Origin: a virus
Reading direction: 5' to 3' (one strand)
DNA: 51,437 nucleotides
Virus record (IMG/VR): IMGVR_UViG_3300018017_000002
Location: 1-51,437 of that record
Below are positions 6,373 through 31,774 of the stretch, one piece after another (positions within the stretch are counted from its first letter, which is position 1; each line of letters opens with the position of its first letter). The notes below the pieces were generated by a model. It worked only from the letters and a program-made list of their open reading frames with translations. It made no database searches and was not told the DNA's origin. The position numbers and the translations under genes are program-made.

Positions 6373-6382
6373 ATAAATAAGT

Positions 6383-6501: not shown

Positions 6502-6620
6502 AACCAAAATTACACCACCCGGTCTTACATAAGCTTGCCGAGTTATTCGACCTGCCTTTGTTAATGTTATGTCGTTGACTTTCATGTTGCCCACTAACAC
6601 TGTAAGCTGGCTGGGTGGTG

Positions 6621-6785
6621 TTAAATTAGCTGAGGTTTATTTGTTCTGTTATAAAAGTTTTTACATTTTTTGCACCAACGAAAGCCATGTAACATTGGTT
6701 CAAGCACACAATGAATTGGTCGAGTAACTGTCATATTATGCCTACCACATAAGCAAAGGAATCTACCTGAATAGTTAATGTGCAT
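6621..6785 (-). CDS. hypothetical small Cys-rich protein (54 aa)
   Basis: MHINYSGRFLCLCGRHNMTVTRPIHCVLEPMLHGFRWCKKCKNF...; below the track cutoff, in the AT-rich spacer inside island 1. Confidence 0.3.
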   Translation of the reverse strand: MHINYSGRFLCLCGRHNMTVTRPIHCVLEPMLHGFRWCKKCKNFYNRTNKPQLI

Positions 6786-6853
6786 TACAAATAGCATACT
6801 ACTCCTTCAAAACTCCACATGGTTTCCATGTCAAGCCGTGGTCAAGGGAGTGT

Positions 6854-7747
6854 TCATTTTTCCTCCTTTCCCTCAGCCTTGTGCTTCTTCTTGAGCGCCA
6901 GTTTGACTGCCCGCGTCTCGCACGGCTTCATGGCGTCACGAATCCGCTTGGACAGTGATGGGAACATGTTGACCAGAAACTCCCGGCCACCATCGCAGTC
7001 CTGAACCTTCTTGGCCTCGTTGCCATCGTAGAAGTTCTTGAGGCACTGTGCCAGTATGCGGCTGGCCTTCTCCTGCCCGCCGCTGTTATGGGACTGCTCC
7101 ATGTATTTGACATAGGCCCGAGCCTGTGTGGACATGTTCTCCAATGAGGATATTTGATTGGCGAACGCCCTTGCCTTCTCCTGCTCCCCGTGGTGGAACA
7201 TGGCCAGCGGCCCGACCACATAGCCCTTTCGCCGTGTCTGCCCCACAACACAGTCGATTACAGCCTCGATGTCCTTCCCCCACAGCTCATGGATGAGCAT
7301 GGAATTGGTCGTGGAGAGCCTTCTGGCTCCGCCCGAAGGATAGACCAGCATGGCTATGCAACGGCACGCAGCCGCCGTCAGAACGCCATTCTTGATGCCG
7401 TGAAGCTGCATCTGCTGTCCGGTCTGCCGGAATCGCCCACGGTCAATCGTGTCCATCGAATTCAGCTCGATGCCGTTCTTGTTCTCCTGCACCGGAATGT
7501 CGTATGTGACTAGCGACTCGATTGACTTGCCGCTGAACACGACGGCCCATAGCCGGTGCTGTCCGTCGCAGAGATTGCCGTCGGTGTCGAAGGCTATTCC
7601 CTGATGATTCAACACCCAGCGCCCGTTTCGCATGTCGGCGGCATACGCCTGAACGGTGTTCTCCGACACCTTGCGGTTGCGCGGGTTGTGCTTCTCCAGA
7701 ACGTCAATGGCCCATTCGGGAGTTATTGTCTCAACTTTTACTCGCAT
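6854..7747 (-). CDS. ParB/Srx-fold (ParB-like nuclease domain) protein
   Basis: 297 aa; ...NHQGIAFDTDGNLCDGQHRLWAVV... matches the DGQHR box of ParB N-terminal domains. GC-rich. Confidence 0.7.
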   Translation of the reverse strand: MRVKVETITPEWAIDVLEKHNPRNRKVSENTVQAYAADMRNGRWVLNHQGIAFDTDGNLCDGQHRLWAVVFSGKSIESLVTYDIPVQENKNGIELNSMDTIDRGRFRQTGQQMQLHGIKNGVLTAAACRCIAMLVYPSGGARRLSTTNSMLIHELWGKDIEAVIDCVVGQTRRKGYVVGPLAMFHHGEQEKARAFANQISSLENMSTQARAYVKYMEQSHNSGGQEKASRILAQCLKNFYDGNEAKKVQDCDGGREFLVNMFPSLSKRIRDAMKPCETRAVKLALKKKHKAEGKEEK

Positions 7748-7897
7748 TTGTCAGTCCTTTCTTTTGAATGACGGTCGGGTTTGATGCGATAGCGCCTTTT
7801 TGTTTCATTCTCATTCATAATTATTTTATTTGTTGTTCAATATTTAGAAACTAATTGCCGCCCTCAGTTTATACAAAGAGCGGACTTAGTTACTAAC

Positions 7898-8506
7898 TTA
7901 CTCAGGAGATGTGGTCTCTGTGGCGGCTTCCTTCGAGCGACGCGCTTTGCGCTCTTCAAAGTCAGCCTTCAAGCTATTCAATGTAGCAGTCATAGTGGCC
8001 ATCTTAGCCTTTGCATTGGCAATGGCAACGGCATCCCCGGATTCAAATGCCGCAATAAGAGTGACAGAAGTGAACTCCTTATACTCATTAACAGCAGCTT
8101 GATAGGCCTCATTAAGCTCAGACAGACGCATTGCAGAGGACTTGAGATTCGTCCAGAAGCCCAAGAACTTCTCCAATGAGAAGATACCATTCTTCAACCC
8201 GCCAGCCTTTTCAGACTCTTCGTCGCCAGTAGCATCCTCAACAAAATCTTGGCCATACCGACGGCCAATAGTATTGAGGGCATTTTTGACATTAGTTTTT
8301 CCCCACCATGCCAAGTCAGCCAAAAAGATTGGGTCAGCGGCAGGCAAAGAGTCAGTACCATCAGTTTCAATCTGTGCAGCTTGGTAAGGCTTATCTTTCC
8401 AAGCATCACGTTTGCCTGTACAGATGGTTAGAATCTTTTCAACGCCATTACGCACTACTTTGTGAGCAGTAGCCAGTGGATTGTGTGTATGTTGTGTTTC
8501 ACTCAT
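7898..8506 (-). CDS. hypothetical protein (202 aa)
   Basis: Track ORF with ATG start. Confidence 0.6.
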   Translation of the reverse strand: MSETQHTHNPLATAHKVVRNGVEKILTICTGKRDAWKDKPYQAAQIETDGTDSLPAADPIFLADLAWWGKTNVKNALNTIGRRYGQDFVEDATGDEESEKAGGLKNGIFSLEKFLGFWTNLKSSAMRLSELNEAYQAAVNEYKEFTSVTLIAAFESGDAVAIANAKAKMATMTATLNSLKADFEERKARRSKEAATETTSPE

Positions 8507-8586
8507 ATATGTTATGTTTGTTTTGTTTTTGTTTGTTTCTTGCTAATACTAAATGCAATCAATTGATTTGCACTTAATAAATTGTG

Positions 8587-9550: not shown

Positions 9551-9844
9551 TGGTGGAGCAGACGGGAATTGAACCCGTGTCCAATAATTATTTCTCACTA
9601 ATGAATTACAAGTTTATACTAACGGGGCGACTGATTTCAGTCACCATCCACCATTGGTCAGTTAAACTGTGACCAAACCAGCATCCACATAGCCGTAATG
9701 TGCAAGCACGGCATCAGCTTGTGCAACAGACATTGCGTAGTCTTGGTTAGCATTTGTTTTGCCTAGAGAGTTTTAAGTGGCCAACTAGACATCCACTACT
9801 TGCATTAGTTTTGATTTAATTACTGTCGAAACCATTACTGCCCC
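9551..9844 (-). ncRNA. ssrA: tmRNA (transfer-messenger RNA), 294 nt
   Basis: Minus strand: 5' GGGGCAGTAATGGTTTCGACAG...3' GGACACGGGTTCAATTCCCGTCTGCTCCACCA. The 7-bp acceptor stem has G3:U70, the T-arm is ACGGG-TTCAATT-CCCGT, CCA is encoded, and there is an internal tag ORF. Confidence 0.9.
9662..9763 (-). other. tmRNA tag reading frame: (A)GKTNANQDYAMSVAQADAVLAHYGYVDAGLVTV, then TAA
   Basis: Resume codon GGC follows a CTCTAG/pseudoknot-like region. The GKTN start resembles known GKTN-type tags. 33 codons, then TAA. Confidence 0.6.
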
Positions 9845-19941: not shown

Positions 19942-20000
19942 TTAGCCTCTAATAATCCAAAGGGCATTGGAGTTAGCCTCTAATAGTTGTTGAAGGGCAT
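19942..20000 (+). repeat. two imperfect ~31-33 nt direct repeats in the capsid-gene leader
   Basis: TTAGCCTCTAATA at 19942 and 19973, each followed by AGGGCAT (19961, 19994). The first copy sits in the palindrome TTATTAG-CCT-CTAATAA. Confidence 0.7.
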
Positions 20001-20068
20001 CAACTCGGTTGCAAGTTACGTTTAACTTGTCATTGAGTCAGTCAACAATTTAATTGAAAGGTTAACAG

Positions 20069-21403
20069 ATGCCGTCATATTACAGTCAGCCAGGTTCATT
20101 CGCTAATGCAATCATTCAGCCGAATAACTTGTTCGCTCAACTTCCTTTCTACCTTGTTCATAATGAGGTAGAACAATACTGTAACTGGAATGAATTTGAC
20201 CAAATGTATGGGTCAATTCCGTGGCAGGAAAATATGGGTTCTGTCATGGAAGCAGTTACTCCACAGCGTTCACCTGTAGGTCGTTCGTTCTTCTTTCCTA
20301 ATCCTATTACTACAGCCAGTAATAAGGACATCTATCAGGTTACAGAATCAAATGAACAGGCTGTGTTGTACAAACACAAGTATGGTTCATTTGTGTTTAA
20401 CTTCATTCCTTCATTCCAAGTATTTTGGGATAAGTACATTAAGTTTAACTCTGATGATATTGTTAAACAAATTGCTGTAAGCAATAACCAGTTCATCGAA
20501 ACACAGATGTGGCAGAATGCTACTTATGTGTATATTTGTGGTGTTGGTCTTAGCGCTGGTGCTCCTACTGGTGCGATGAACTCGACTCTTAATGCAGCCA
20601 ACTCTAAGTCTGCTGCATGGCTAGTTGCCCTTGCTCAAGGCACAGCAGCTAATCCTGGCCCACTTCAAAATCTTCGTATTCGTGATGCATACCGTGCAGT
20701 AATGAATCTGCAAGATGATTTGGGTGCTCCTTCATTTAATGGTGCTAAGAACATGCCGAAAGACAATGAGGGTCTTAAGGGCCGTTATGCACTGTTCTGT
20801 GGTTCTGAGGATTACTTTAACTTTACCTTTGACCCTGATGTTAATGGTGTTGTTGGTACACAAGGTATGTTAAAGTCTGTTAATCTTGACTTGCTGTTTA
20901 ATGACTTCAAAGGTTCCTTGTTTGGTACATTGACATGCAAGATTAAGAAGTATCCTATTCGTTATAGTACACAGAACATTGTTGATGGTGCTGGTACTGT
21001 TCTTTGGGCGGCTGGATTTCCTATTGACCCTGAAATCTTCGACCCAACTGATAACAAGTGGAAACCTAATCCTTATTACACATCACTTGTGTCTGCTCCA
21101 TACTCTATTGCCTGGCTACTTGGTGATAACTTCTGTAAGACACTCAAGGTTGGCCCTCCACCTAAAGAGTTTGCTACAAAGAATATGTCAGGTGAGAAAT
21201 TCTACTCACTGCGATGGAATGGTGAGGTTCGTTTAACTGACCAGATTCTTATTACTAACTCTGATGGTTCGATTGAACTTAACGACTATGGTGAAAACTT
21301 GCAGCTTAAGTCTCAACTAACTCATGGATTGATTATGACAGAAAGACGTTTTGCGTTTCCAATTATAATTGCACGTTCTCGTCCAGCAATTACTTCTGTC
21401 TAA
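20069..21403 (+). CDS. major capsid protein (by position, size and expression signals)
   Basis: 444 aa; follows the scaffold-like gene; has its own strong promoter-like site and a long leader. Confidence 0.65.
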   Translation: MPSYYSQPGSFANAIIQPNNLFAQLPFYLVHNEVEQYCNWNEFDQMYGSIPWQENMGSVMEAVTPQRSPVGRSFFFPNPITTASNKDIYQVTESNEQAVLYKHKYGSFVFNFIPSFQVFWDKYIKFNSDDIVKQIAVSNNQFIETQMWQNATYVYICGVGLSAGAPTGAMNSTLNAANSKSAAWLVALAQGTAANPGPLQNLRIRDAYRAVMNLQDDLGAPSFNGAKNMPKDNEGLKGRYALFCGSEDYFNFTFDPDVNGVVGTQGMLKSVNLDLLFNDFKGSLFGTLTCKIKKYPIRYSTQNIVDGAGTVLWAAGFPIDPEIFDPTDNKWKPNPYYTSLVSAPYSIAWLLGDNFCKTLKVGPPPKEFATKNMSGEKFYSLRWNGEVRLTDQILITNSDGSIELNDYGENLQLKSQLTHGLIMTERRFAFPIIIARSRPAITSV

Positions 21404-21430
21404 CATATAATAACAATAAATAATACGAAT

Positions 21431-21937
21431 ATGAATAAATATTTCAAACTTGCTGCTATTGGATTGCTGTTGGCTAGTTCTAGTGCAATGGCATCCTTTA
21501 CACAAACTACTACGGTAACTGGTAACGCTATGGTAAATCTATTGACCCTTGTCAATGGTTCTGCCAAAGTTAGTCAAGTTACTATTCAAGCATCCACTGC
21601 AACTAATACAGCAGTTATGCTGTATGATTGCCCTACTAATGCACTAACATATGTTAATCCTGCTTATACAAATAGGACAGCGTATGCTACTAACCTAATT
21701 ACAGGGCCATTGACTAATTATTATGGCGTTGTATTCTATCAAACTAATATGGCATTGGTCGATGTAACTAACAATGTTGTTGCTTCTACTACCAACAGTT
21801 ATAATTCGTTTGGTTTTTCAGCAACTGCTAGTACATCAACAACCTATAGTTCTCTTAACTTGTATTTCGAACATGGATTGTGGGTGACTAATACAACTGC
21901 TGGTACTGCTGTATTTACTATTGTTTACGTTCAATAA
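21431..21937 (+). CDS. signal-peptide protein (168 aa), co-transcribed with the capsid gene
   Basis: N-terminus MNKYFKLAAIGLLLASSSAMA-SF (n-h-c region with AxA); Thr/Asn-rich mature part; followed by a strong terminator. Confidence 0.55.
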   Translation: MNKYFKLAAIGLLLASSSAMASFTQTTTVTGNAMVNLLTLVNGSAKVSQVTIQASTATNTAVMLYDCPTNALTYVNPAYTNRTAYATNLITGPLTNYYGVVFYQTNMALVDVTNNVVASTTNSYNSFGFSATASTSTTYSSLNLYFEHGLWVTNTTAGTAVFTIVYVQ

Positions 21938-21953
21938 TTAATAAAAGAAAGGG

Positions 21954-21988
21954 GGTGAGACTAGTGTAACAGCTAGTCTCACCTTTTC
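21954..21988 (+). terminator. rho-independent terminator
   Basis: GGTGAGACTAG-TGTAACAG-CTAGTCTCACC, an 11-bp perfect stem followed by TTTTC. Confidence 0.85.
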
Positions 21989-21994
21989 AAATTT

Positions 21995-22378
21995 ATGCCA
22001 CTTCGAGTAACAAATGCAGTAGAGAAGAATACATCTTGTGACCCTATAGTGCCAATAGTTGTGGCTGACAGTAAAGCTGTGACTGTATTGCCAGACATTA
22101 GTACATCAAAAGGCGAATGGCTAGGACGTTATATTCAGAATGTAGGAGCTAATGATTGCTATTATGCAATAGGTCATGACTGTGACCAAACTAATTTCAA
22201 TGGTATCTTATCTAAGCCTGCTTCTACTAATTCTGATTCATTTGGTTCTGGACAACAATTTGATGCATCTAACACAGGTCAGAAAATTTCAGTATTTTCT
22301 CGTGGTGGAACAACTATTGCTGTTACATCTATACGTCGAAATGATAATGCTCAAGGACAAGGCAACATACTGAAATAA
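21995..22378 (+). CDS. hypothetical protein (127 aa)
   Basis: Track ORF with ATG start. Confidence 0.55.
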   Translation: MPLRVTNAVEKNTSCDPIVPIVVADSKAVTVLPDISTSKGEWLGRYIQNVGANDCYYAIGHDCDQTNFNGILSKPASTNSDSFGSGQQFDASNTGQKISVFSRGGTTIAVTSIRRNDNAQGQGNILK

Positions 22379-23598
22379 TGAAAAGATTATTTGTAGTCTT
22401 ATTGGTTGGATGTACATTATCTGTATATGGTATTGGTGGATTAGTTAGTCCGACTATAAGTGCTAATGGTGGCGGGATTCCGTCCTCGGTTCAGTTCTCC
22501 GCGCTGGCGACGAATGCGATGAATGGTGTTCCTGGTGGCAATATCGTTACGAACAATCCCTATGCCGGTTTGTTCCTGATGGCGAACGCATTGACCAACC
22601 TGTATTATCCGGGGATTGTGTTCGTTTCCACCAATGGGAATGATACTAATGGTGGTGCTGGTTATTTGACCAATGCCTTTTTGACAGTTACCGGGGCTTG
22701 GACGCACATGGGCAACGGCTACGCCTATCATGTTGGGCCGGGCATGTTTAAGGTTTATACAAACGGAGTTTTCACCCATTGGATACAGGCACCCGCAAAC
22801 ATGGTTCTGGATGGAGAGGGAGCAAACACTGTTCTTTGGGCACCTTATGACCCCAATGCTGCCACCGGAATTGCGGTCACGACGAATCAAACTTTTCAAA
22901 ATCTTACGTGCAGTAATTTGGTGTTCTTCACTCCACTTGCTGCTGCTCTTTCGGGGACGTTAACTTCTGCCACAAACGTAAGCTGGCTGAATCTTTCGAT
23001 TCAAAACTCAAATGTAATTGACACGTGGTATGCCGATGGTGGCGATGCCAGTGGAGGGGGAGACGGATATCATTTTTGCATGGTGTCAAACTGTACAGTT
23101 GTCGGGTACTTTGATTTGGCTATGGGATTCTACAACTCCACCTTTGCATACGATAACATCTTGTTAGCTGCTACAAATAACGCTATAGCATTCGGTGGAA
23201 ACACTGACCCAATTTTCCTCTATGGCGGGAACTTCACTTTTATCGGCGGGACTTATACGCAGCAGCATGCGTCTGGTGGTTCGAGTGGCTACACTTCGAC
23301 GATTCAAGATGACGAAACCGGAATGGATACAAACACATTCATCGGCACAATTCAATGGTACATTCCCGGCACACTGGTAACGAACATGAGCGGAGGGACA
23401 ACTCACAGTGCCGGGGGAGTTTTTCCAGTCAATAGTTTTAGTGGAAATTTTTCTGGCAACGGCTCCGGGCTGACGAACGTCTCGTCGGCGTCTATTTCGG
23501 TTGTGACCAACTCCGCGCCGACGAATGCTGTCACTCCGCTCTTTTGGATTGGAATTACAAACGGCACATCGGTCTATAAAGTGCCGCTCTACCGATGA
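22378..23598 (+). CDS. lipoprotein-signal, beta-helix-like (pectate-lyase-like) protein; candidate tailspike or envelope-acting enzyme
   Basis: MKRLFVVLLVGC (lipobox LVGC); ...VLDGEGANTVLWAPYD...TFQNLTCSNLVF...; C-terminal ...GNFSGNGSGLTNVS... fibre-like motif. Composition switches from AT-rich to GC-rich at about nt 22465 within the ORF. Confidence 0.55.
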   Translation: MKRLFVVLLVGCTLSVYGIGGLVSPTISANGGGIPSSVQFSALATNAMNGVPGGNIVTNNPYAGLFLMANALTNLYYPGIVFVSTNGNDTNGGAGYLTNAFLTVTGAWTHMGNGYAYHVGPGMFKVYTNGVFTHWIQAPANMVLDGEGANTVLWAPYDPNAATGIAVTTNQTFQNLTCSNLVFFTPLAAALSGTLTSATNVSWLNLSIQNSNVIDTWYADGGDASGGGDGYHFCMVSNCTVVGYFDLAMGFYNSTFAYDNILLAATNNAIAFGGNTDPIFLYGGNFTFIGGTYTQQHASGGSSGYTSTIQDDETGMDTNTFIGTIQWYIPGTLVTNMSGGTTHSAGGVFPVNSFSGNFSGNGSGLTNVSSASISVVTNSAPTNAVTPLFWIGITNGTSVYKVPLYR

Positions 23599-24275
23599 AA
23601 GTCTGGCTCCTCATTTTGTTTTTGGTTGCACGTACTGCAACCGCTCAACAGGAGGTTGCAGTCCGGCAGGATACGCTGGCGCACTTCGTTGCAGACACGA
23701 TTTCAAACAACATCACGACGCTCACTCAGACCGTAACGCTGAACGTGACGAACACGGTGACGGTCAACAGCACCAACACCGTTTTGCAGACCAACATCGT
23801 GACGGTGAACCTGACCAACACGACGCTGCTCACCAATGCCGTAACGGTCTATTCGACCAACGCAACAACGACGCTGGCCACAAACTTCTACTCGGTGACG
23901 AACATCACCTACACCACGAACCTGACACTAACGACGAACATTTTCAACGTCACAAACACCGTGCTGCAAACGAACGTCATCAATGGCGGGGTGGCAACAT
24001 CCGGCTGGCCGACGCAGTGGCCGCTGTCGGCCATCACGAACGCAGGGACAGCGGCGGGAACGGCCACAAGTGCGTATGACGCTTCCGGTACTGCCACAAC
24101 AGCCGCGCAGCAGGCAACGAACGGAATCACCTACACGCTGCTCAAAGGCTGGCTTGGGTTCACGCCGGCGACGAACAATCCAAATGCGTGGACAGGAACA
24201 ATAACCAATCTTTACACATCATCACTGTCTAATCATATCCAAGTGTCATCTGGTGTTATCACAAACAAATTATGA
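23595..24275 (+). CDS. signal-peptide protein with Thr/Asn/Val-rich repeats dense in N-x-T
   Basis: MKVWLLILFLVARTATA-QQ; ...NITTLTQTVTLNVTNTVTVNSTNTVLQTNIVTVNLTNTTLLTN...; ATGA overlap with the upstream gene. Confidence 0.55.
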   Translation: MKVWLLILFLVARTATAQQEVAVRQDTLAHFVADTISNNITTLTQTVTLNVTNTVTVNSTNTVLQTNIVTVNLTNTTLLTNAVTVYSTNATTTLATNFYSVTNITYTTNLTLTTNIFNVTNTVLQTNVINGGVATSGWPTQWPLSAITNAGTAAGTATSAYDASGTATTAAQQATNGITYTLLKGWLGFTPATNNPNAWTGTITNLYTSSLSNHIQVSSGVITNKL

Positions 24276-24679
24276 ACCGCCGCGACAAAATAGGTCTGTG
24301 GACTTGTCTCGCGCTGCTCATCGCGTCGGCGATTGTGTTCATGGTCTGCACGGCGAGCGGCCAGACCTTGCCACCGATTCCGCAGGCTACATCCGTCAAC
24401 AAGACGAACCGGACAGTCGTGCATGAGACGAACGGGAGCACGGTCATAACCAGCAACGGTCGCTCGGTCACGAACTGGCCCGCGCCGGTGCCCACGGTGC
24501 AGTCATTTGAAGTGGACGTTACGGTAAAGGGGATTTTCACTGTCACGAACGTTCCGTATCCGTTTTACGTCCGTGTATATTCAAACGATTTGCAATGGTC
24601 AAGCAGCCCGCTGTTTCCGAAAACGAACACGATTAAAATGGGCACGCTGACAACCAGCATGACCTACACGAACGCATGA
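24272..24679 (+). CDS. membrane-anchored/secreted hypothetical protein (135 aa)
   Basis: N-terminal hydrophobic segment LWTCLALLIASAIVFMVC; ATGA overlap. Confidence 0.5.
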   Translation: MNRRDKIGLWTCLALLIASAIVFMVCTASGQTLPPIPQATSVNKTNRTVVHETNGSTVITSNGRSVTNWPAPVPTVQSFEVDVTVKGIFTVTNVPYPFYVRVYSNDLQWSSSPLFPKTNTIKMGTLTTSMTYTNA

Positions 24680-24687
24680 AAGGGTGA

Positions 24688-24924
24688 ATGGACAAGATGG
24701 AAACACTATCTATTACACTAATGGTAGGCGGAGTAGTGCTTGTCGGCACGGCAATAGGAGTGCCAGACCTTGGCTGGATTAGTGCGGCGGCTGTTGCTGT
24801 CATTTGGCTAGACCAAAAGTTCTCCCGAATAGACAAAAAGATAGACCGCTTGCCTTGTGTTCGCGGGAAGCATTGCGGTTTTGGATTGGAAGACCGCGAC
24901 AAAGAAGAATCTTCAACGATATGA
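24688..24924 (+). CDS. holin-like protein (two transmembrane segments, charged C-terminus)
   Basis: LSITLMVGGVVLVGTAIGV and LGWISAAAVAVIWL followed by a Lys/Arg/Asp/Glu-rich tail; immediately upstream of the putative endolysin. Confidence 0.5.
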   Translation: MDKMETLSITLMVGGVVLVGTAIGVPDLGWISAAAVAVIWLDQKFSRIDKKIDRLPCVRGKHCGFGLEDRDKEESSTI

Positions 24925-25385
24925 ACTTCCCCGACGACCTTCTACTCGGCGACGTGCTGCTCTACAACTTGCCGCATGATTTGCCGGATGATGTGATTGA
25001 CGTTTTCACCGACAGCGATGTTGCCCATGCTGAAATTTATTGGGGCAACGGCTTGTCTATTGCTGCCCGCGCTCAGGGCGTTAATGTATATGACTTCCGA
25101 TTGGACGGCCTGATGTATGTGCGCCGCCCTGTTGCCCCGTTTAATCGTTCGCTGGCCGAAGCATGGTTTAACAACGGCATTCGCGGATTGCCCTACGGGT
25201 GGGAAGGACTGCTCACGTTCGCCGGAATTGACCTGCCAAGCAAAGGTCTGATTTGCTCCGTAACTGTTGCGCTGTTGCTTAAGGTCGGTCAATGCCCATG
25301 CTTTGCAGATGATTACCCAATCCACAAAATCTCACCACGGGACTTGAAACTGCCCCGCGAGCTAACCACAATATACACAGCATGA
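24921..25385 (+). CDS. permuted papain-like (NlpC/P60 or YiiX-type) cysteine peptidase; candidate endolysin
   Basis: The ATG at 24921 overlaps the holin stop (ATGA). His-before-Cys order: ...SDVAHAEIYWGNG... then ...GLICSVTVALLL... Confidence 0.45.
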   Translation: MNFPDDLLLGDVLLYNLPHDLPDDVIDVFTDSDVAHAEIYWGNGLSIAARAQGVNVYDFRLDGLMYVRRPVAPFNRSLAEAWFNNGIRGLPYGWEGLLTFAGIDLPSKGLICSVTVALLLKVGQCPCFADDYPIHKISPRDLKLPRELTTIYTA

Positions 25386-25570
25386 AAACACTCATCATCC
25401 TCATCAAACGAAGGCTATGCGGCCTGATTTTCAGCCATAGGCCATTGCATCCTACCGATAGTGGGTGGGTTGTTGGAAGTAAAATGGTTGACCGATTCTG
25501 TAATAGATGTGGTCACATTGTGAGAATGCCAATGGCGGAAGACCCTCGCTATGACAAAACTACCCGCTGA
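25382..25570 (+). CDS. hypothetical protein (62 aa)
   Basis: Track ORF; ATGA overlap; CNRCGH motif. Confidence 0.4.
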   Translation: MKTLIILIKRRLCGLIFSHRPLHPTDSGWVVGSKMVDRFCNRCGHIVRMPMAEDPRYDKTTR

Positions 25571-25600
25571 AACTGAGCGGGTTCAACCCGTAGGAAAATT

Positions 25601-25960
25601 ATGGACACAAACTCAATACCAATCCTGACTCAAATCGGTAACGCAATGCCATCGGCCATTCAACTGCACTGGCCGGCCATCGCCATCCTCATCACTTACA
25701 TTACGCACGTCAACTGGACTACCGTGCAGAATTATTGTGATGCGCGGACTGGCGGCGTAATCCCGTGGCTGTTCCGGCTACTCGTCGGAACGCCAGCAAC
25801 TCAACCCGCCGCGCCTGCGGCACAAATGCGTCCTGTCACCAGTCCCGAAGGCACAGTCAAACCAATTATACAACCTGCTGCGATTGTACCACAACCAGCG
25901 ACGACTGACCCTTTTGGTCATGTGACAAATGACCCTTTGGGGTATCATACAATAACATAA
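25601..25960 (+). CDS. membrane protein with a Pro/Ala/Gln-rich C-terminal part (possible spanin-like component)
   Basis: Hydrophobic segment WPAIAILITYITHV; extended ...TQPAAPAAQMRPVTSPEGTVKPIIQPAAIVPQPATT... Confidence 0.4.
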   Translation: MDTNSIPILTQIGNAMPSAIQLHWPAIAILITYITHVNWTTVQNYCDARTGGVIPWLFRLLVGTPATQPAAPAAQMRPVTSPEGTVKPIIQPAAIVPQPATTDPFGHVTNDPLGYHTIT

Positions 25961-25962
25961 AA

Positions 25963-26127
25963 ATGAAGCGACTTATGACAAAAGAAATGTCCGACAAAAT
26001 TAGGGCACAAAGGCTCGCGATGCCCCGTGTAACTCTTGCCGAAGCACAGGCGCAAGCAAAACGTGTGATGGCTGGAAGAATGCGCCACAACCAACAACCA
26101 AACCAACAACACCAAAAAACACCATGA
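25963..26127 (+). CDS. hypothetical small basic protein (54 aa)
   Basis: Below the track cutoff; MKRLMTKEMSDKIRAQRLAMPRV...; its TGA overlaps the next ATG (ATGA). Confidence 0.35.
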   Translation: MKRLMTKEMSDKIRAQRLAMPRVTLAEAQAQAKRVMAGRMRHNQQPNQQHQKTP

Positions 26128-26696
26128 AAAAACTCACGACCACAATCCTGTTCGCAGCAACCATCGGCCTGCTCGCTCTGGCGGTCAGCGCAAGGGCGCA
26201 AACATCAACCAATCCTCCGGCATTAACCACTGCCCAAGCTCTCACTATTGCCGGAACAAATGCTCTGAATGGCTTGGAGTCTCTAAGTCTCACTCCGGGT
26301 TTTGTCGGTTCGGCATTTGCTGGCAACATTAGCGGCAATTCATTCGCCGGGGTTGCCATAAATACGCTTCCAACAAACAACATCAGTGCCGGCGTGTTCA
26401 TCGCGGACTTTTACAAGCACAACAAATCCGATGTGTTTGAAGGAAATGTGAGTGTGGCCTACAACGCCACAGCCACCTTGCCAATCGTCGGCGAGTTGCC
26501 GTGCGTGATTACCGAAGGGCCAGCCACAGACATCAGCAACGCCAAAACGGTGTATAATGAAAACACGCTGCTCACGGGTAAGACGTGGGTGTTCAACAAA
26601 AACGTCACACTGGCTGTGAACGGGGGTGGGGTCTATCTAACCAAATATCACAACCCCGGCTGGATGGCGACGGCGAATCTGGTTTGGAGATTCTAA
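26124..26696 (+). CDS. small outer-membrane beta-barrel-like protein (Lom/Ail/OmpX-like by architecture)
   Basis: Signal peptide MKKLTTTILFAATIGLLALAVSARA-Q; 190 aa; C-terminal ...TANLVWRF with terminal Phe and alternating hydrophobics (OMP beta-signal). Confidence 0.5.
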   Translation: MKKLTTTILFAATIGLLALAVSARAQTSTNPPALTTAQALTIAGTNALNGLESLSLTPGFVGSAFAGNISGNSFAGVAINTLPTNNISAGVFIADFYKHNKSDVFEGNVSVAYNATATLPIVGELPCVITEGPATDISNAKTVYNENTLLTGKTWVFNKNVTLAVNGGGVYLTKYHNPGWMATANLVWRF

Positions 26697-26708
26697 TAAT
26701 GTGTTCAC

Positions 26709-26737
26709 TGAGAGTTGATATAATACATTAACTCTCA
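26709..26737 (+). terminator. hairpin at the right edge of island 2
   Basis: TGAGAGTT-(13 nt)-AACTCTCA; no clear U-run. Confidence 0.35.
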
Positions 26738-26753: not shown

Positions 26754-27593
26754 ATGAGTTATCCTTTAGTTCCACCACCATTAAATGATACAGGAGCTTG
26801 GCAAATACCAAGAACCTTACAAAGATGGTTAGACATTAATCCTATTACTCACTTAACTAGAACTCAGGCATATATTACCTTGCCAGCATTCAATGTAAAT
26901 GTTAATTGGTTAGGATATTCTGATATAGTTGCGTCATTTAACTATGAAGGGCCAAATAACTTTAGTTTGATTGGTTTTAATATTGAACCTAGTTCTACTC
27001 CTAATTATTTGTTATGTATAATGTGGAAAGATAGTAAAGATAATGTAAATCGCTATAAGTTGTGGTCTGGTGTTGGCGAAATATTATATTTCAATATACC
27101 AGTATATGCAGGACAAAAAATAGGAAAGAATTTTAGACTTGAGATTTGGTCAACTAATAATACACCAGCAATACAAACAAACAATATACAGGTGTACACT
27201 TCTGTTCTTGGCAAGCAGGACTATAGATGGGGAACCGATTTTACACTAGTTGGTAGCGATACTATTTGTACTAATTTTAGTGAACCTTCTAATACAATAG
27301 AGTTGGCAATGGGAAAACAGTATGTCGTACCCTATAGTGGCAATTACTATATAATTATAGCAATACCAGCAGGACTTTATGCGCAGACTTTTGTATACAC
27401 ACAGGGTAATGATACTGGATTGTTTGAAAATGACCACACAACTCCTGTTCCTGCCGGCCCCTTTATAGCTATAGATGCTATATATTTTCTTGAAGGGCCT
27501 CATTTTGTAGCATCAACGTCGTCAGTAAGTATCTCTAATGTATTTGCAGTACCAATAGCATTTCCGCCTAACTCATATCCACAACCAAATTAA
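26754..27593 (+). CDS. virion structural protein, function unknown (279 aa)
   Basis: Track ORF in the tail/fibre block. Confidence 0.55.
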   Translation: MSYPLVPPPLNDTGAWQIPRTLQRWLDINPITHLTRTQAYITLPAFNVNVNWLGYSDIVASFNYEGPNNFSLIGFNIEPSSTPNYLLCIMWKDSKDNVNRYKLWSGVGEILYFNIPVYAGQKIGKNFRLEIWSTNNTPAIQTNNIQVYTSVLGKQDYRWGTDFTLVGSDTICTNFSEPSNTIELAMGKQYVVPYSGNYYIIIAIPAGLYAQTFVYTQGNDTGLFENDHTTPVPAGPFIAIDAIYFLEGPHFVASTSSVSISNVFAVPIAFPPNSYPQPN

Positions 27594-27598
27594 TATAT

Positions 27599-28984
27599 AT
27601 GCCACAACCTTCATCTATAGATTTCATTGCTCCATTCGACCCAACTGGTTATACATCAATAACTGGCGCCCAACTACTTCAATTAGTGTCTGGATTATAT
27701 CCTAATACTGATACTGGACTAACTTTAATTACTGCTGATATAGCTGGAATTCCACAAGTACCTGATGCTTCCACTACAACCAAGTGGGAAAACTATATAT
27801 GGATTAGACAGTCAGCTACCTATGTAACTGCTTATGTATGGAATCCTAATGGAGCCACTGATGCTACATATCTTAATTGGGTAACTATAGCTTCTGCTTC
27901 TATTGGAGCAGGAACTATCCAAGGCTACATGATAGCTCCTAATACTATTCCAGCATCAGCCATAATTAGTATATCAGCTACCCAAATATCTGGTTCTGTT
28001 GTTCCAGCATGGCTAGCACAGCTTAATATATCTGGAACAGCATATTCAACTAATGGATTAATGAATAATAATTCACCTGTATTTGGTGTACTTAATGGTG
28101 CTGGCTCTACAGTTGGAATACCTGTATTCGGTACTCAAGTAATACCTTCTACTGCATACGGATTACAAACTATTGGAGGAAGCACAGTAGCATTAGCTAG
28201 CCCTATTGTTGATAATAGTATTACTACTAGACAGCTACTATCGAATGGCGGCACAGCTACCGCAGCAGCAACTATTGCAGCAGTCGACCCAAAAACTAAT
28301 ATAATTGTACCAACTACATCTATTCCTGGAATACCTAGCAATACTTCTGTTCCACAAGCTTCTGCTATAGGTGATATTCTTGGAATAGGATATAATGCGA
28401 ATGCAGCACAGTTAGGTTTTGTTACTATTAGCAGAGCATTGTTAAATTTAGATGACCCTGCTAGTGTAGCAGGACAAGTTCAGATTCCAATTGTAAAAGC
28501 AGCAGCTACTGCATATTCGTATGCTAATTTTGGCAACTTAACATTGCAAAAAATAAACGCACAATATTCAACAGCTACCGATTGTACAGGTTCAGTCAGC
28601 ATGACTGATAGTGTAGTTGGCATGACCACAAAAGGTACATCACGTTCTAGTGGAGTGGCTGTTACAATCACTCCTTTAGCTGGAACTTCTGGCTCTAAAG
28701 TAATTGTTACTGCTCATGTTCCTGTATATTTGAATATAAGTGGCGGGGGAGCCTTATGGTTAGGCTTATATGATTCTGTTTCTGCTTTATTTATAGCTTT
28801 TGCTAGATTTGGAGGAACAAATATTTCCAATGTTATTACTCTAAAAGGAACAACTGCTGCACTAACAGTGAATACTGCAAGAACATTTACTATTTATATT
28901 GGAACCACATCAGGGACAGCAGCTAATGCACAAACTAACTATTATTCTGAAGGTGCATTTATAACAGCAGAAGAAGTTCTATAA
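27599..28984 (+). CDS. tail-fibre-like protein (461 aa)
   Basis: Ala/Thr/Ser/Gly/Ile-rich with repeated I-x-x-x-I periodicity (...TIQGYMIAPNTIPASAIISISATQISGS...); position in the tail block. Confidence 0.5.
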   Translation: MPQPSSIDFIAPFDPTGYTSITGAQLLQLVSGLYPNTDTGLTLITADIAGIPQVPDASTTTKWENYIWIRQSATYVTAYVWNPNGATDATYLNWVTIASASIGAGTIQGYMIAPNTIPASAIISISATQISGSVVPAWLAQLNISGTAYSTNGLMNNNSPVFGVLNGAGSTVGIPVFGTQVIPSTAYGLQTIGGSTVALASPIVDNSITTRQLLSNGGTATAAATIAAVDPKTNIIVPTTSIPGIPSNTSVPQASAIGDILGIGYNANAAQLGFVTISRALLNLDDPASVAGQVQIPIVKAAATAYSYANFGNLTLQKINAQYSTATDCTGSVSMTDSVVGMTTKGTSRSSGVAVTITPLAGTSGSKVIVTAHVPVYLNISGGGALWLGLYDSVSALFIAFARFGGTNISNVITLKGTTAALTVNTARTFTIYIGTTSGTAANAQTNYYSEGAFITAEEVL

Positions 28985-30802: not shown

Positions 30803-31774
30803 ATGTTATCTTATGTATTACAACAAATTGGCTATAAAGTAGGACTGAATCCTGCTGACAGTGGCCAGAGAGCAGTTCTATTACGCTTCGCTAATACTGC
30901 TGCTAAAGAGTTATACAGTATCTCTGATATGTCAGGTTGTTTAGAAGAACAGTATTTCAAGATTAATGCTGACCAAACTATATCCTTGCCAGAGTATGTA
31001 GGACAAATAAGAGCAATGAGGGAATCTTGGTCACATATAGCTATTAAGCTATCACAAATGCGACCAAGGTATAATCAGTTTAACTGGACACAAGAATGGC
31101 GGAATTGGAGAATAAAAGGACTACAGACACTACAAACATCCTTGCAAAATCAATCTAAATTAATAGTGTCTGCGACTACTATAGAATCGACACCAGCTAT
31201 TATTAACATTTCAGGGCCGTCAATAGGTTCTACTAATGTGTCCGAAACTATTACACTGTCAAGCACTCCAATTCAAACTTCTAATACATATCTTGATGTG
31301 TCTGCTTTTACTAGAAATACTGTTGGCCAATATGATATTATTCTATCTGATATAGATGGTAATCAAATATCATACATACCTAACAATAAACTTAAAGCAC
31401 AATTTCAGATAATTGATATTTCTACATCACCTTGGTTTCCACCTAATGTTAATCCATTGTTAGGTTGGGTTGAAGTTCTATACAAGAAATCATTACCTTG
31501 GTTTCAAAATGATAATGATGAGTTTCCTGTTCCTGGATATGACGAAGTATGGATTAATAAATGCTTGCAATTATGGTATGAAGAAGCAAAAGATATACAA
31601 ACAGCAACAGCCTATTATCAGAAAGCTATAGCATTGTTAGCACAGATACATGAGGATGCTAATAGAGGAACAGCGGATGAGGTTGCATTTGTAGAAAATC
31701 CTCATGATAGAATAAATCATCGTACAGGATTTGGAAGAGACTGGCAATATGCTTATAGAATTACAGGAAGATAA
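30803..31774 (+). CDS. virion structural protein (323 aa)
   Basis: Position only. Confidence 0.5.
   Translation: MLSYVLQQIGYKVGLNPADSGQRAVLLRFANTAAKELYSISDMSGCLEEQYFKINADQTISLPEYVGQIRAMRESWSHIAIKLSQMRPRYNQFNWTQEWRNWRIKGLQTLQTSLQNQSKLIVSATTIESTPAIINISGPSIGSTNVSETITLSSTPIQTSNTYLDVSAFTRNTVGQYDIILSDIDGNQISYIPNNKLKAQFQIIDISTSPWFPPNVNPLLGWVEVLYKKSLPWFQNDNDEFPVPGYDEVWINKCLQLWYEEAKDIQTATAYYQKAIALLAQIHEDANRGTADEVAFVENPHDRINHRTGFGRDWQYAYRITGR

What the first reader, a model, noticed from the sequence alone, without database searches (positions are those of the whole stretch)
22378..26700. 4.2-kb GC-rich cassette fused in frame after about codon 30 of a backbone gene
ORF 22378..23598 starts with AT-rich codons (...GGT GGA TTA GTT AGT CCG ACT ATA AGT GCT AAT GGT). 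Without interruption it then switches to GC-rich codons (GGC GGG ATT CCG TCC TCG GTT CAG TTC TCC GCG CTG GCG ACG...). The GC-rich block continues through eight further ORFs, mostly with overlapping or near-abutting stops and starts (four ATGA overlaps), to 26696. These are a beta-helix protein, an N-x-T-rich secreted protein, a membrane protein, a holin, a peptidase, three small ORFs and an OMP-like protein. The backbone composition then resumes. The module bundles adsorption-type, envelope and lysis functions, as if a complete host-interaction cassette had been swapped in from a phage of a high-GC host while a short N-terminal segment was kept.
Basis: seen in the sequence. Interest (0 to 1): 0.7.

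Follow-up and report, generated by a model that had tools for sequence, protein, structure and literature searches.

The report
Swapped phage fibre-and-lysis gene cassette
A 4.2-kb block of higher-GC genes in a low-GC phage genome is real. The same block occurs almost unchanged in several unrelated higher-GC phages, so it is a clean but essentially ordinary example of phages trading the genes that act on the host cell envelope.

Summary
Window 22475-26696 is 51.3% GC against about 38% for the rest. GC at third codon positions is 0.42-0.72 in the block and 0.16-0.34 in backbone genes. The switch falls in frame after codon 32 of ORF 22378-23598.

It is not an assembly artefact. A second assembly is identical over 21 kb. 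Two sibling phages (L002, L037) share the backbone and the first 32 codons, then diverge at the same nucleotide into different alleles that are also GC-rich.

The window's allele is 97-100% identical in DNA to contigs from phages with no detectable backbone similarity. These are L019/L020/L021 (49-50% GC) and L025-L028 (52-56% GC, with an integrase). The block is therefore a mosaic drawn from a shared pool, not one unit.

The exchange breakpoints between the window and L002 lie in or just after signal-peptide-like coding sequence of the first gene (c1) and the last gene (c9).

The gene functions are mostly inferred:
- a fibre- or depolymerase-like first gene
- a holin-like protein
- a probable permuted-papain peptidase
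- an outer-membrane-barrel-like last gene

Both structure predictions failed, and the host is unknown. This is module exchange of a known kind. The unusual features are the signal-peptide-like fibre N-termini and the joint transfer of fibre and lysis genes.

The parts
21431..21937 (+). o168: backbone gene downstream of the putative capsid gene. It has a signal-peptide-like N-terminus and is conserved at 34-46% aa identity across the family. It forms the left flank of the variable locus.
21995..22378 (+). o127: last conserved backbone gene before the variable locus. Its stop overlaps the start of c1 (TAATG).
22378..22473 (+). c1 codons 1-32, in backbone (AT-rich) composition. They encode a signal-peptide-like segment, MKRLFVVLLVGCTLSVYG, followed by the family-conserved motif IGGLVSPTISANGG. 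This segment is identical in L002 and near-identical in L037 and L018. It is the retained adaptor.
22474..22497 (+). 24-nt GC-rich junction stretch (GGGATTCCGTCCTCGGTTCAGTTC, encoding GIPSSVQF). It was found only in this genome and its twin assembly, not in the siblings or the donor-type contigs.
22498..23598 (+). c1 body plus a C-terminal module of about 55 aa (GNGSGLTNV...KVPLYR). It is 97-98% nt identical to L020, L021, L019 and L025-L028, where it is fused to three other N-terminal regions. Putative fibre, tailspike or receptor-binding part.
23595..24275 (+). c2: 226-aa Thr/Asn/Val-rich protein with a signal-peptide-like N-terminus. About 23500-24300 carries no lineage-specific difference between the window, L020 and L025. 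c2 is absent from L019 and L021, where the c1 C-terminus also differs.
24272..24679 (+). c3: 135-aa protein with an N-terminal membrane or signal anchor. It is present in all versions of the cassette, including L002's divergent allele (39% aa identity).
24688..24924 (+). c4: 78-aa holin-like protein. It has a hydrophobic N-terminal half and a highly charged C-terminal tail, and its stop overlaps the start of c5.
24921..25385 (+). c5: 154-aa probable permuted papain-like (YaeF/YiiX, C92 / NlpC-P60-like) peptidase and the endolysin candidate. H36, E38 and C112 are invariant in 7 homologues.
25382..25570 (+). c6: 62-aa small protein with a CxxC motif. Function unknown.
25562..25582 (.). GC-rich hairpin between c6 and c7. 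It coincides with an internal module boundary: the first matched segment to L025 ends at 25564, and identity to L020 and L019 ends at 25604.
25601..25960 (+). c7: 119-aa protein with a Pro-rich C-terminal half. Only its first ~75 codons (to 25825) match L025-L028, at 98.9%.
25963..26127 (+). c8: 54-aa strongly basic small protein. It is specific to this genome among the loci compared.
26124..26696 (+). c9: 190-aa protein with a signal-peptide-like N-terminus and a C-terminal ...NLVWRF. It looks like an outer-membrane beta-barrel. From residue 12 it is 100% identical in aa to L002 and 99% to L019, and the breakpoint lies inside the signal peptide. The right edge of the GC-rich block is its stop codon.
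26709..26737 (.). AT-rich 8-bp-stem hairpin (TGAGAGTT...AACTCTCA) in the backbone intergenic region just after the block. L002 shares it. L019 has an unrelated GC-rich hairpin at this position.
26754..27593 (+). d279: first conserved backbone gene to the right of the variable locus. Its N-terminal ~176 aa are conserved in the family and its C-terminus is variable, being swapped between the window and L002 at 27279-27546.

Best explanation
The window is a complete ~51-kb genome of an uncultured, podovirus-like phage of 38% GC. Every relative found carries a hypervariable locus between the head-proximal genes (o168, o127) and the first conserved tail-side gene (d279).

The first gene of that locus always begins with a signal-peptide-like segment, a short conserved Gly-rich motif (GGLVxPTISANGG) and a Gly/Ser linker. 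It then continues into an unrelated body. Further exported proteins and lysis-type genes follow.

In this genome the locus is filled with a 4.2-kb mosaic taken from a pool of modules that circulates among higher-GC phages. These include a temperate phage that encodes an integrase.

Shown:
- near-identity of the DNA (97-100%) across backbones with no detectable similarity
- alternative alleles in sibling genomes
- a left breakpoint reproducible to the nucleotide, just after the adaptor (codon 32)
- a right breakpoint inside the signal peptide of c9

Inferred:
- Exchange happens by recombination during co-infection of a shared host, or with a resident prophage.
- The short conserved adaptor and signal-peptide sequences, and the identical flanks in siblings, serve as crossover sites that keep the reading frame and protein targeting intact.
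- The block works as a host-envelope interface set: c1 (with c2) binds or degrades a surface glycan, c4 and c5 act as holin and endolysin, and c9 is an outer-membrane protein.
- The block can be exchanged because all its parts must match the host envelope rather than the phage backbone.

The confidence of 0.8 applies to the origin by module exchange. The individual gene functions are less certain, at about 0.5.
For: Composition:
- The block is 51.3% GC against 38% for the rest, and GC3 is 0.42-0.72 against 0.16-0.34.

Genuineness:
- L001, from an independent assembler, is 100% identical over 21,221 nt spanning both junctions. The genome closes on a 123-bp terminal overlap.

Alternative alleles:
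- L002 is 99.9% identical over 20078-22474, then unrelated, then 97.4% identical again from 26102.
- L037 is 91.5% identical up to 22472, then carries a third allele of 53% GC.
- All 12 relatives with both flanks have a variable interval of 2.6-8.4 kb that is 1-12 GC points above its flanks. Their first ORFs share the same signal-peptide-plus-motif N-terminus.

Donor pool:
- L020, L021 and L019 (49-50% GC throughout) are 97-98% identical to 22498-25604. L019 is also 96.6% identical to 26102-26694.
- L025-L028 (52-56% GC, Phage_integrase) are 97.3% identical to 22506-25564 and 98.9% to 25558-25825.
- The flanking genes of these contigs show no tblastn similarity to the window family.
- Differences among the three versions are patchy. 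About 800 nt carry no lineage-specific difference, and the window copy shows no AT-ward drift (23 S>W against 23 W>S changes).

Function:
- Alleles at the c1 position in relatives carry Melibiase_2 plus Laminin_G_3 (L018) and an endosialidase N-terminal extension (L009).
- The c1 C-terminal module is shared with other long proteins. By my reading of their sequences, these have signal-peptide-like N-termini and fibre-type features.
- c5 has invariant His, Glu and Cys residues and weak hits to C92, YaeF and NlpC/P60.
- Homologues of c5 sit just upstream of d279 in L005, L018 and L035.
Against: - No function was demonstrated. AlphaFold models of c1 (pLDDT 32) and c5 (pLDDT 44) are unusable.
- No Pfam, PHROG, NCBIfam or PADLOC family reaches its threshold for any of the nine proteins.
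- A Sec-type signal peptide is unexpected on a protein that has to join virions in the cytoplasm, so c1 and c2 may not be virion proteins.
- L002's allele has no c5-type peptidase, so the cassette may not hold the phage's only lysis enzyme.
- The 24 nt at 22474-22497 match neither siblings nor donor-type contigs, so the immediate donor was not found.
- The host is unknown, so 'shared host' is an inference.
- L001 may derive from the same reads as the window.
Confidence: 0.8

Rival explanations
1. c1, c2, c3 and c9 are not virion parts. They are exported during infection into the periplasm, outer membrane or cell surface. There they destroy or mask the receptor, which would give superinfection exclusion and keep progeny from sticking to debris, or they help take the envelope apart. 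The true receptor-binding proteins would be d279 and d461. The origin by module exchange is the same as in the best explanation; only the role differs.
For: - In the window, signal-peptide-like N-termini occur only on o168, c1, c2, c3 and c9.
- They also occur on the c1 counterparts in the other backbones.
- d279 and d461 have the classic layout of a conserved N-terminus with a variable C-terminus. The d279 C-terminus also differs between the window and L002.
- The exported proteins sit next to the holin-like and peptidase genes.
Against: - The 14-residue motif after the hydrophobic segment is conserved within this phage family but not in the other backbones. That fits docking to a family-specific partner such as the virion.
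- Fibre-type sequence features are present, by my reading: the GNGSGLTN motif, collagen-like GPQGPTGP runs in alleles P0032 and L026, and the endosialidase N-terminal extension in L009.
Confidence: 0.3
2. The block comes from the bacterial host chromosome (non-phage genes or a defective prophage) rather than from other phages.
For: - The composition is closer to that of a presumably higher-GC host.
- One carrier encodes an integrase and so probably resides in a host chromosome as a prophage.
- The contents (outer-membrane-like protein, peptidase, exported proteins) are of types that bacteria also encode.
Against: - The near-identical copies lie in phage-type gene arrays: large structural ORFs, fibre-like genes and IMG/VR viral contigs.
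- Scans of one genome for each of 185,579 species found no relative of the c5 profile or of the integrase.
- c1 and c9 have almost no homologues in 5.8 billion proteins.
Confidence: 0.06
3. The GC-rich block is an assembly chimera that joins two different phages.
For: - Sharp composition steps at both ends.
- The same sequence is present in other co-occurring phages, which could mislead an assembler.
Against: - Both junctions are in frame or at a stop codon, and the genes are translationally coupled.
- A second assembly is identical.
- Siblings from other samples have the same architecture and the same left breakpoint with different inserts. L002 also shares the right junction from c9 into d279.
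- All family members have a variable, GC-elevated interval at this position.
Confidence: 0.02
4. The composition difference arose in place, for example through amino-acid composition, selection on codon use of late genes, or GC-biased repair at a recombination hotspot, without recent import.
For: The variable interval is 1-12 GC points above its flanks in every relative examined. This could reflect a property of the locus.
Against: - The shift is strongest at third codon positions.
- The block is 97-100% identical in DNA to phages with no detectable backbone similarity whose whole contigs have that composition.
- GC-biased conversion could still contribute to the family-wide trend. That was not tested.
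Confidence: 0.04

Closest known systems
Modular exchange of tail-fibre and tailspike receptor-binding domains behind a conserved N-terminal anchor. From my own knowledge: P22, Sf6 and HK620 tailspikes; K1F, K1-5 and SP6 adaptors; and the tail-fibre genes shared among P2, Mu, P1 and lambda described by Haggard-Ljungquist et al. 1992.
   Same: - The N-terminus is conserved within the phage family and the bodies are unrelated.
- The breakpoint is reproducible at a linker.
- The same body is fused to four different N-terminal regions in different phages.
- Alleles carry glycosidase and lectin domains.
   Different: - The retained anchor is only 32 codons, and its first ~18 residues look like a Sec signal peptide.
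- The exchanged unit extends beyond the fibre gene into exported proteins, lysis-type genes and an outer-membrane-like gene.
- Virion association was not shown.
Phage genome mosaicism and 'morons', that is, compositionally deviant inserts (Hendrix, Juhala and colleagues; my own knowledge)
   Same: - A segment of deviant GC content with sharp boundaries is shared between otherwise unrelated phages.
- A second GC-rich island at 5400-8510 looks more like classic morons.
   Different: This is not an added, independently transcribed gene between two backbone genes. It replaces a resident homologous locus, is fused in frame to a backbone gene and is translationally coupled to its neighbours.
Holin-endolysin lysis cassettes of phages of Gram-negative bacteria
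   Same: - c4 is a small membrane protein with a charged C-terminal tail, and its stop overlaps the start of a putative peptidoglycan peptidase.
- Relatives carry other enzyme types in the same slot: DUF1353 and Peptidase_C1.
   Different: - No recognisable spanin pair is present.
- The enzyme is only weakly assignable.
- L002's allele lacks it.
Phage-encoded outer-membrane and lipoprotein genes next to fibre or lysis genes: lambda Lom and Bor, T5 Llp, phi80 Cor (my own knowledge)
   Same: c9 has a signal-peptide-like N-terminus, alternating beta-strand-like segments and a C-terminal aromatic residue. It lies at the end of the fibre and lysis block.
   Different: c9 has no sequence match to Ail/Lom or to any other Pfam family. 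Its role is unknown.

Membership tests
Phage receptor-binding fibre or tailspike with swappable distal domain | N-terminal anchor conserved among related phages, with unrelated distal bodies | tested here: met
   - The first 32 codons are identical in L002 and near-identical in L037 and L018.
- The motif is present in most family relatives.
- The bodies are unrelated.
Phage receptor-binding fibre or tailspike with swappable distal domain | Distal part is a glycan-binding or glycan-degrading domain, or a beta-helix | tested here: inconclusive
   - Alleles in L018 (Melibiase_2 plus Laminin_G_3) and L009 (endosialidase N-terminal extension) meet this feature.
- c1 itself has no family or PDB hit, and its model has pLDDT 32.
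Phage receptor-binding fibre or tailspike with swappable distal domain | The protein is part of the virion and mediates adsorption | not testable with these tools
   This needs virion proteomics, cryo-EM or genetics. The signal-peptide-like N-terminus argues for caution.
Moron | Deviant base composition relative to the surrounding genome | tested here: met
   The block is 51.3% GC against 38%, and GC3 is 0.42-0.72 against 0.16-0.34.
Moron | An extra, autonomous transcription unit inserted between two backbone genes | tested here: not met
   - The block is fused in frame to a backbone gene.
- It has five ATGA overlaps.
- It replaces a locus present in all relatives.
- Promoter-like and terminator-like matches are not above shuffled expectation.
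Holin (c4) | Small protein with one or more transmembrane segments and a charged C-terminal tail, encoded next to the endolysin | tested here: inconclusive
   - c4 is 78 aa.
- It has a hydrophobic segment at residues 7-25 and a shorter one at about 28-41.
- It has a Lys/Arg/Asp/Glu-rich tail.
- Its stop overlaps the c5 start.
- No holin family matches.
Peptidase C92 / YaeF-YiiX permuted papain-like (NlpC/P60 superfamily) (c5) | Profile match at or above the curated threshold | tested here: not met
   - NCBIfam YaeF: E 0.011, 14.9 bits against a cutoff of 279.
- Pfam Peptidase_C92, for the L005 homologue only: E 0.004, 17.6 bits against a cutoff of 27.
- PDB 6biq (NlpC/P60): E 0.36.
Peptidase C92 / YaeF-YiiX permuted papain-like (NlpC/P60 superfamily) (c5) | Conserved catalytic His upstream of the catalytic Cys (permuted order) | tested here: met
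   H36 (in the motif DVAHAEIY) and C112 (in GLICS) are invariant in 7 homologues that go down to 51% identity. Their catalytic role is inferred.
Ail/Lom/OmpX-type small outer-membrane beta-barrel (c9) | Sequence membership in the family | tested here: not met
   No Pfam, NCBIfam or PDB match of significance.
Ail/Lom/OmpX-type small outer-membrane beta-barrel (c9) | Signal peptide, about eight amphipathic strands and a C-terminal aromatic beta-signal | tested here: inconclusive
   - The N-terminus MKKLTTTILFAATIGLLALAVSARAQ is signal-peptide-like.
- The C-terminus is ...ATANLVWRF.
- The strand count comes from reading the sequence only. No structure model was made.
Spanin pair | An outer-membrane lipoprotein with a lipobox plus an inner-membrane partner, encoded next to the endolysin | tested here: not met
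   c6, c7 and c8 have no lipobox (sequences). Several relatives do carry LxGC lipoprotein-like genes in this interval.

The most novel reading that the evidence does not exclude
The block could be a self-contained 'envelope-interface' supermodule. It would comprise Sec-exported fibre or depolymerase proteins, holin and endolysin, and an outer-membrane barrel, moving together at 97-100% identity between unrelated virulent and temperate phages of one uncultured host, with signal-peptide coding sequences acting as the portable recombination joints. On this reading the signal peptides are functional. These fibre-like proteins would then be deployed through the periplasm or cell surface, as exported receptor-destroying enzymes or as parts that arm virions outside the cytoplasm. 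That mode has not been described for tailed phages.
Probability: 0.15. Interest if true: 0.75.

Novelty: new variant of a known kind. Interest (0 to 1): 0.5.

Why it matters
This is an unusually clean natural example of how a virulent phage, whose own composition (38% GC) is far from that of the other phages carrying these genes, obtains host-matched envelope genes from that higher-GC pool.

The breakpoints are resolved to the nucleotide, and there are three alleles at one joint. The same DNA is found in at least three backbone types spanning 38-58% GC.

The finding links otherwise unconnected uncultured phages to a probable common host. It also marks the 32-codon adaptor as a natural splice point for engineering host range in this family.

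The consistent signal-peptide-like N-termini on fibre-like proteins are unexplained. If functional, they would change how these proteins are thought to be deployed.

Tried and rejected
- **Family searches.** Pfam, PHROGs, NCBIfam and PADLOC scans of all nine cassette proteins gave nothing at threshold.
- **Structure prediction.** AlphaFold2 of c1 (8-row alignment) and c5 (7-row alignment) gave pLDDT 32 and 44. No fold search was run, because the matches would be meaningless.
- **PDB sequence searches.**
  - c1 gave nothing.
  - c9 gave only noise-level hits, including tail tubular protein A at E ~0.1, which I do not accept.
  - c5 gave NlpC/P60 at E 0.36.
- **Remote homologues of c1.** An exhaustive phmmer search against 1.84 billion representatives found no remote relative of the c1 body. 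Only the N-terminal and C-terminal modules recur.
- **Host identification.** Scans of genome contigs with the c5 profile and with the L026 integrase found nothing.
- **Cultured phages.** GenBank phages have no match to the window DNA, the putative capsid or portal proteins, c5 or the tmRNA.
- **Sample metadata.** Searching the literature for the sample accessions found nothing.
- **Immediate donor.** The search for the donor of the 24-nt junction stretch failed.
- **Other alleles.** L002's allele and c2 have no further copies in IMG/VR.
- **Amelioration test.** The window copy shows no AT-ward drift. This gives no dating and no independent evidence of direction beyond composition.
- **N-glycosylation idea.** I rejected this for c2, because its sequon count equals the expectation from composition.

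Full report
**1. The observation**

The window is 51,437 nt. Its first 123 nt recur at its end, so it is a complete genome of about 51.3 kb. The backbone is AT-rich: 75 windows of 500 bp outside the GC-rich parts average 0.379 GC (sd 0.032, max 0.458). Windows inside 22475-26500 are 0.47-0.57. Over 22475-26696 the GC content is 51.3%, against 37.8-38.7% for the remainder.

The difference lies mainly at synonymous positions. GC3 is 0.42-0.72 for the nine ORFs of the block. It is 0.16-0.34 for backbone genes outside the other GC-rich stretches. Amino-acid composition therefore does not explain it.

AT-rich codons run up to ...GCT AAT GGT GGC at 22473, and GC-rich codons follow in the same frame. 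At the other end, composition drops directly after the TAA at 26694-26696.

Nine + strand ORFs fill the block. There are five ATGA overlaps (c1/c2, c2/c3, c4/c5, c5/c6, c8/c9), not four, plus a TAATG overlap with the upstream gene.

**2. What the genome is**

The minus-strand arms encode these functions:
- a family-A DNA polymerase in two ORFs
- a DUF3987 primase/helicase-type protein
- a ResIII/DEAD helicase
- a PD-(D/E)XK nuclease
- a ligase-like OB domain
- an AAA_24 protein

The plus-strand arm (13-41 kb) holds large ORFs with no family hits. The only exception is a sub-threshold match of ORF 30803-31774 to the SU10 podophage adaptor. This arm ends with a 2,155-aa ORF.

No GenBank phage matches the DNA, the putative capsid protein (20069-21403), the 640-aa portal-sized protein or c5. 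This is an uncultured phage lineage and probably podovirus-like. The capsid and portal labels are my inference from gene size and order.

**3. Not an artefact**

The exact c1 protein is on record from several sources. A Logan assembly of SRR7027868 (L001) is 100% identical over 21,221 nt spanning both junctions. This may come from the same reads, so stronger evidence comes from relatives found in other samples.

**4. A family-wide variable locus with a fixed joint**

Seventeen IMG/VR loci encode relatives of the putative capsid protein at 60-100% aa identity. In all 12 distinct relatives where both flanks are present, a stretch of 2.6-8.4 kb lies between the homologue of o127 (or o168) and the homologue of d279. 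That stretch has no similarity to the window, and its GC is 1-12 points above its own flanks.

The first ORF of that stretch is 235-1,214 aa. It always starts with Lys/Arg, a hydrophobic run and a small-residue end. In the closer relatives the motif G-(G/A)-G-L-V-x-x-T-(I/L)-S-(A/G)-(N/G)-G-G follows, then a Gly/Ser linker.

Two siblings pin the joint to the nucleotide:
- L002 (IMGVR_UViG_3300037843_000033) is 99.9% identical to the window over 20078-22474 and then unrelated. Identity resumes at 26102 (97.4% to 27278), breaks again in the C-terminal part of d279 (27279-27546), and resumes at 98.5%.
- L037 (ENA ERZ27313174) is 91.5% identical over 19987-22472 and then carries a third allele: P0032 (428 aa) followed by a 201-aa protein with a weak precomputed fn3 hit. 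This allele is 53% GC against 38% for its flank.

L002's allele is also GC-rich, at 49.6% against 37.0%. The 'cassette after about codon 30' is thus one of at least three alleles sharing one breakpoint at codon 32.

**5. Where the allele comes from**

c1 has only two homologues among 5.8 billion proteins in the word-indexed search. No remote relative of its body appears among 1.84 billion representatives. The near-identical copies are informative.

| Contigs | GC | Identity to the window | Context |
|---|---|---|---|
| L020 (JGI 3300037993), L021 (ENA ERZ27249707) | ~50% throughout | 97-98% over 22498-25604 (L020); L021 covers a shorter part | L020's upstream genes differ from the window backbone |
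| L019 (IMG/VR, 11.2 kb) | 49% throughout | 98.5% over 22506-23477, 94.2% over 24272-25604, 96.6% over 26102-26694 | followed by 7.8 kb of structural-type genes |
| L025/L026 (20 kb), L027, L028 | 52-56% | 97.3% over 22506-25564, 98.9% over 25558-25825 | L025-L027 have a Phage_integrase gene and a tRNA-Met downstream |
| L022/L023 | 58-59% | c9 at 92% | higher-GC context |

The genes flanking the shared segment in these contigs show no tblastn similarity to the window or any of its relatives. The one exception is a short N-terminal fibre motif shared by L020 and L013.

The shared segment is about 51% GC everywhere. It matches the L019/L020 context (48-49%). It is a high-GC island in the window family and a low-GC island in L026 (58.3% upstream, 55.4% downstream). 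The 50%-GC lineage is therefore the best compositional home.

In a three-way alignment (window, L020, L025) the pairwise identities are 97.4, 97.4 and 98.1%. The lineage-specific differences are clustered in patches, and about 23500-24300 carries none. Window-specific changes are 23 GC-to-AT and 23 AT-to-GC. The transfer is too recent for amelioration, and the versions differ by further patchwise recombination rather than clock-like divergence.

Several carriers come from the same assemblies or the same accession series:
- ERZ27313174 holds both L022 and L037.
- ERZ1426849 holds contigs with both P0006 and P0032.
- L019 (the same contig as Ga0116112_1002419) and L026 (Ga0116127) are from one series.

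This is consistent with co-occurrence.

**6. The block is a mosaic, not one unit**

- **Left edge.** Backbone identity ends at 22473. Then come 24 nt found only here (GGGATTCCGTCCTCGGTTCAGTTC). Donor-type identity begins at 22498 (L020, L021) or 22506 (L019, L025).
- **c1 body.** The same body is fused to four different N-terminal regions:
  - 40 aa in the window
  - 75 aa in L020 and L021
  - about 370 aa in L026, in a 734-aa fibre-like protein with collagen-like and GNGSGLTG repeats
  - the same long form in L019
- **c2.** It is present in the window, L020 and L025-L028 but absent from L019 and L021. There the last ~18 residues of c1 are also different. This suggests that c2 works with the c1 C-terminus, which is an inference.
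- **Internal boundary.** Identity to L020 and L019 ends at 25604, just after a GC-rich hairpin at 25562-25582. L025 has extra DNA at that point.
- **c7, c8 and the start of c9.** L019 and L002 have a 70-aa two-helix membrane protein in place of c7 and c8, and a different start to c9. All three converge inside the c9 signal peptide (ATIGLLALAVSARAQ). L026 carries a 168-aa paralogue with the same signal peptide and the same C-terminal WRF, but an unrelated middle.
- **Right edge.** Identity to L019 stops at the c9 stop codon. Downstream, the window and L002 share an AT-rich hairpin, while L019 has a GC-rich one.

The segment that differs between the window and L002 is therefore bounded on the left just after a signal-peptide-plus-adaptor sequence and on the right inside a signal peptide.

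**7. What the genes probably do**

Nothing reaches a curated threshold in Pfam, PHROGs, NCBIfam or PADLOC. Both AlphaFold runs failed, with pLDDT 32 for c1 and 44 for c5. The remaining evidence is as follows.

- **c1.** Alleles at the same position in relatives carry Melibiase_2 plus Laminin_G_3 (L018) and the N-terminal extension of phage endosialidase (L009). The C-terminal ~55 aa of c1 recur at the end of other long proteins. By my reading of their sequences, these have signal-peptide-like N-termini and beta-helix-type or GDSL-type regions. I read c1 as a fibre, tailspike or depolymerase type protein. The 'beta-helix' label is unverified.
- **c2.** It has a signal-peptide-like N-terminus and is Thr/Asn/Val-rich. 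Its N-x-S/T count equals the expectation from composition (9 against 8.1).
- **c3.** It has an N-terminal membrane anchor and is present in every version, including L002's at 39% identity.
- **c4.** At 78 aa, with a hydrophobic N-terminal half and a charged tail overlapping the c5 start, it is holin-like.
- **c5.** H36, E38 and C112 are invariant among seven homologues. It has weak matches to the YaeF family of permuted papain-like enzymes (E 0.011), to an NlpC/P60 structure (E 0.36) and to phrog_1128 (E 5e-6). Its L005 homologue weakly matches Peptidase_C92 (E 0.004). It is a probable cell-wall peptidase, but not proven.
- **The c5 slot in relatives.** Homologues of c5 lie directly upstream of d279 in L005, L006, L018 and L035, where they have AT-rich composition. 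Other relatives have DUF1353 or Peptidase_C1 proteins in that slot. L002's allele has no c5-type gene.
- **c9.** It has a signal-peptide-like N-terminus, strand-like alternation and a C-terminal ...NLVWRF. It looks like a small outer-membrane barrel but matches no family.

In the whole window, signal-peptide-like N-termini occur only on o168, c1, c2, c3 and c9.

**8. How it most likely works**

Three things are shown: near-identical DNA in backbones with no detectable similarity, alternative alleles in siblings, and fixed in-frame joints.

The rest is inferred. Phages infecting the same host recombine during co-infection or with a resident prophage. One carrier has an integrase, which fits this. 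Within the family, the near-identical flanks (99.9% upstream, 97% downstream) allow ordinary homologous replacement of the allele. Entry of foreign bodies into the family requires a join at the Gly-rich linker behind the 32-codon adaptor. The 24-nt orphan stretch suggests an unsampled intermediate.

All products act at or across the envelope. They must therefore fit the host rather than the phage backbone, which explains why they can travel together.

The main functional rival is that the signal peptides are real and that c1, c2, c3 and c9 are exported rather than built into virions. In that case d279 and d461 would be the true fibres. I give this rival about 0.3.

**9. Comparison with what is known**

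Exchange of receptor-binding domains behind conserved anchors, mosaicism with compositionally deviant segments, lysis cassettes, and outer-membrane or lipoprotein genes beside fibre genes are all established (from my own knowledge; not retrieved here).

This case differs in three ways:
- The retained segment is very short and looks like a signal peptide.
- Fibre-type, exported and lysis-type genes are transferred together.
- The backbones sharing the same DNA span 38% to 56-58% GC.

It is not a moron in the strict sense, because it is fused in frame, translationally coupled and replaces a resident locus.

**10. Verdict**

The mechanism is a known one, so I rate the novelty as a new variant of a known kind and the interest as moderate.

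Three things remain unresolved:
- the host
- the role of the signal-peptide-like N-termini
- every biochemical function

Noticed in passing
window 9551-9844 (- strand): A full-length tmRNA gene. Rfam RF00023 scores 112.4 bits (E 3e-43) over model positions 1-374, and ARAGORN also calls it. It lies in AT-rich backbone. No similar sequence exists in the GenBank phage collection. The tag peptide that ARAGORN reads is unusually long and may be wrong.
   Followed up: partly
window 6285-6372 (- strand): An 88-nt tRNA match in Rfam (36 bits, just above the gathering score) that ARAGORN does not call. It lies inside the second GC-rich island.
   Followed up: no
window 5400-8510 (- strand genes): A second GC-rich island in the early or replication arm, not part of the finding. 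Contents:
- a 76% GC stretch that encodes a Gly-Tyr/Gly-Ser/Gly-Asp dipeptide-repeat ORF (5442-5747)
- a 149-aa ORF (GC3 0.59)
- a 297-aa ORF (6854-7747, GC3 0.74) whose sequence resembles ParB-type nucleases (my reading; Pfam gave no hit)
- a 202-aa ORF

The 297-aa protein has a relative at 75% aa identity on a 54.6% GC viral contig (L029). This phage has therefore imported higher-GC genes more than once.
   Followed up: partly
window 26754-28984; L002 15700-18333: d279 and d461 have N-termini conserved across the family (about 176 and about 130 aa) and variable C-termini. Between the window and L002 the d279 C-terminal part (27279-27546) is replaced. These may be the actual fibres.
   Followed up: partly
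window 22378-22431, 21431-21500, 23595-23650, 26124-26200; L020 3307, L026 6474; P0034, P0036: Fibre-like proteins in all the phage backbones examined, and the small protein after the putative capsid gene, begin with sequences that look like Sec signal peptides. This is unexpected for proteins assembled into virions in the cytoplasm and remains unexplained.
   Followed up: partly
L019 42-1244, L021 1943-3238 versus window 23478-24275: The last ~18 residues of c1 and the presence of c2 vary together. Contigs without c2 have a different c1 C-terminus. This suggests the two proteins interact.
   Followed up: partly
L002 12307-15642: The sibling's allele has no c5-type peptidase. It has a 110-aa and a 70-aa membrane protein instead. 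The enzyme that lyses the host for that phage is not apparent.
   Followed up: no
window 10561-31977 versus L002: The backbone itself is mosaic between the two siblings. Identity is 89.7%, 96.4%, 90.5%, 99.9%, 97.4% and 98.5% in successive blocks. The 99.9% block ends exactly at the cassette joint.
   Followed up: no
window 1-123 and 51315-51437: An exact 123-bp terminal overlap. The contig is a complete circularly assembled genome or has direct terminal repeats.
   Followed up: yes
L025/L026 11962-13754; L027 4888-6680: In the temperate carrier, the cassette is followed by a tyrosine integrase on the opposite strand and a tRNA-Met gene about 700 nt further on. This is a possible attachment-site region and could be used to find the host.
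   Followed up: no
window 30803-31774: A sub-threshold match (E 5e-5, 24.2 bits against a cutoff of 27) to the adaptor protein of podophage SU10. It is the only hint of the virion type.
   Followed up: no
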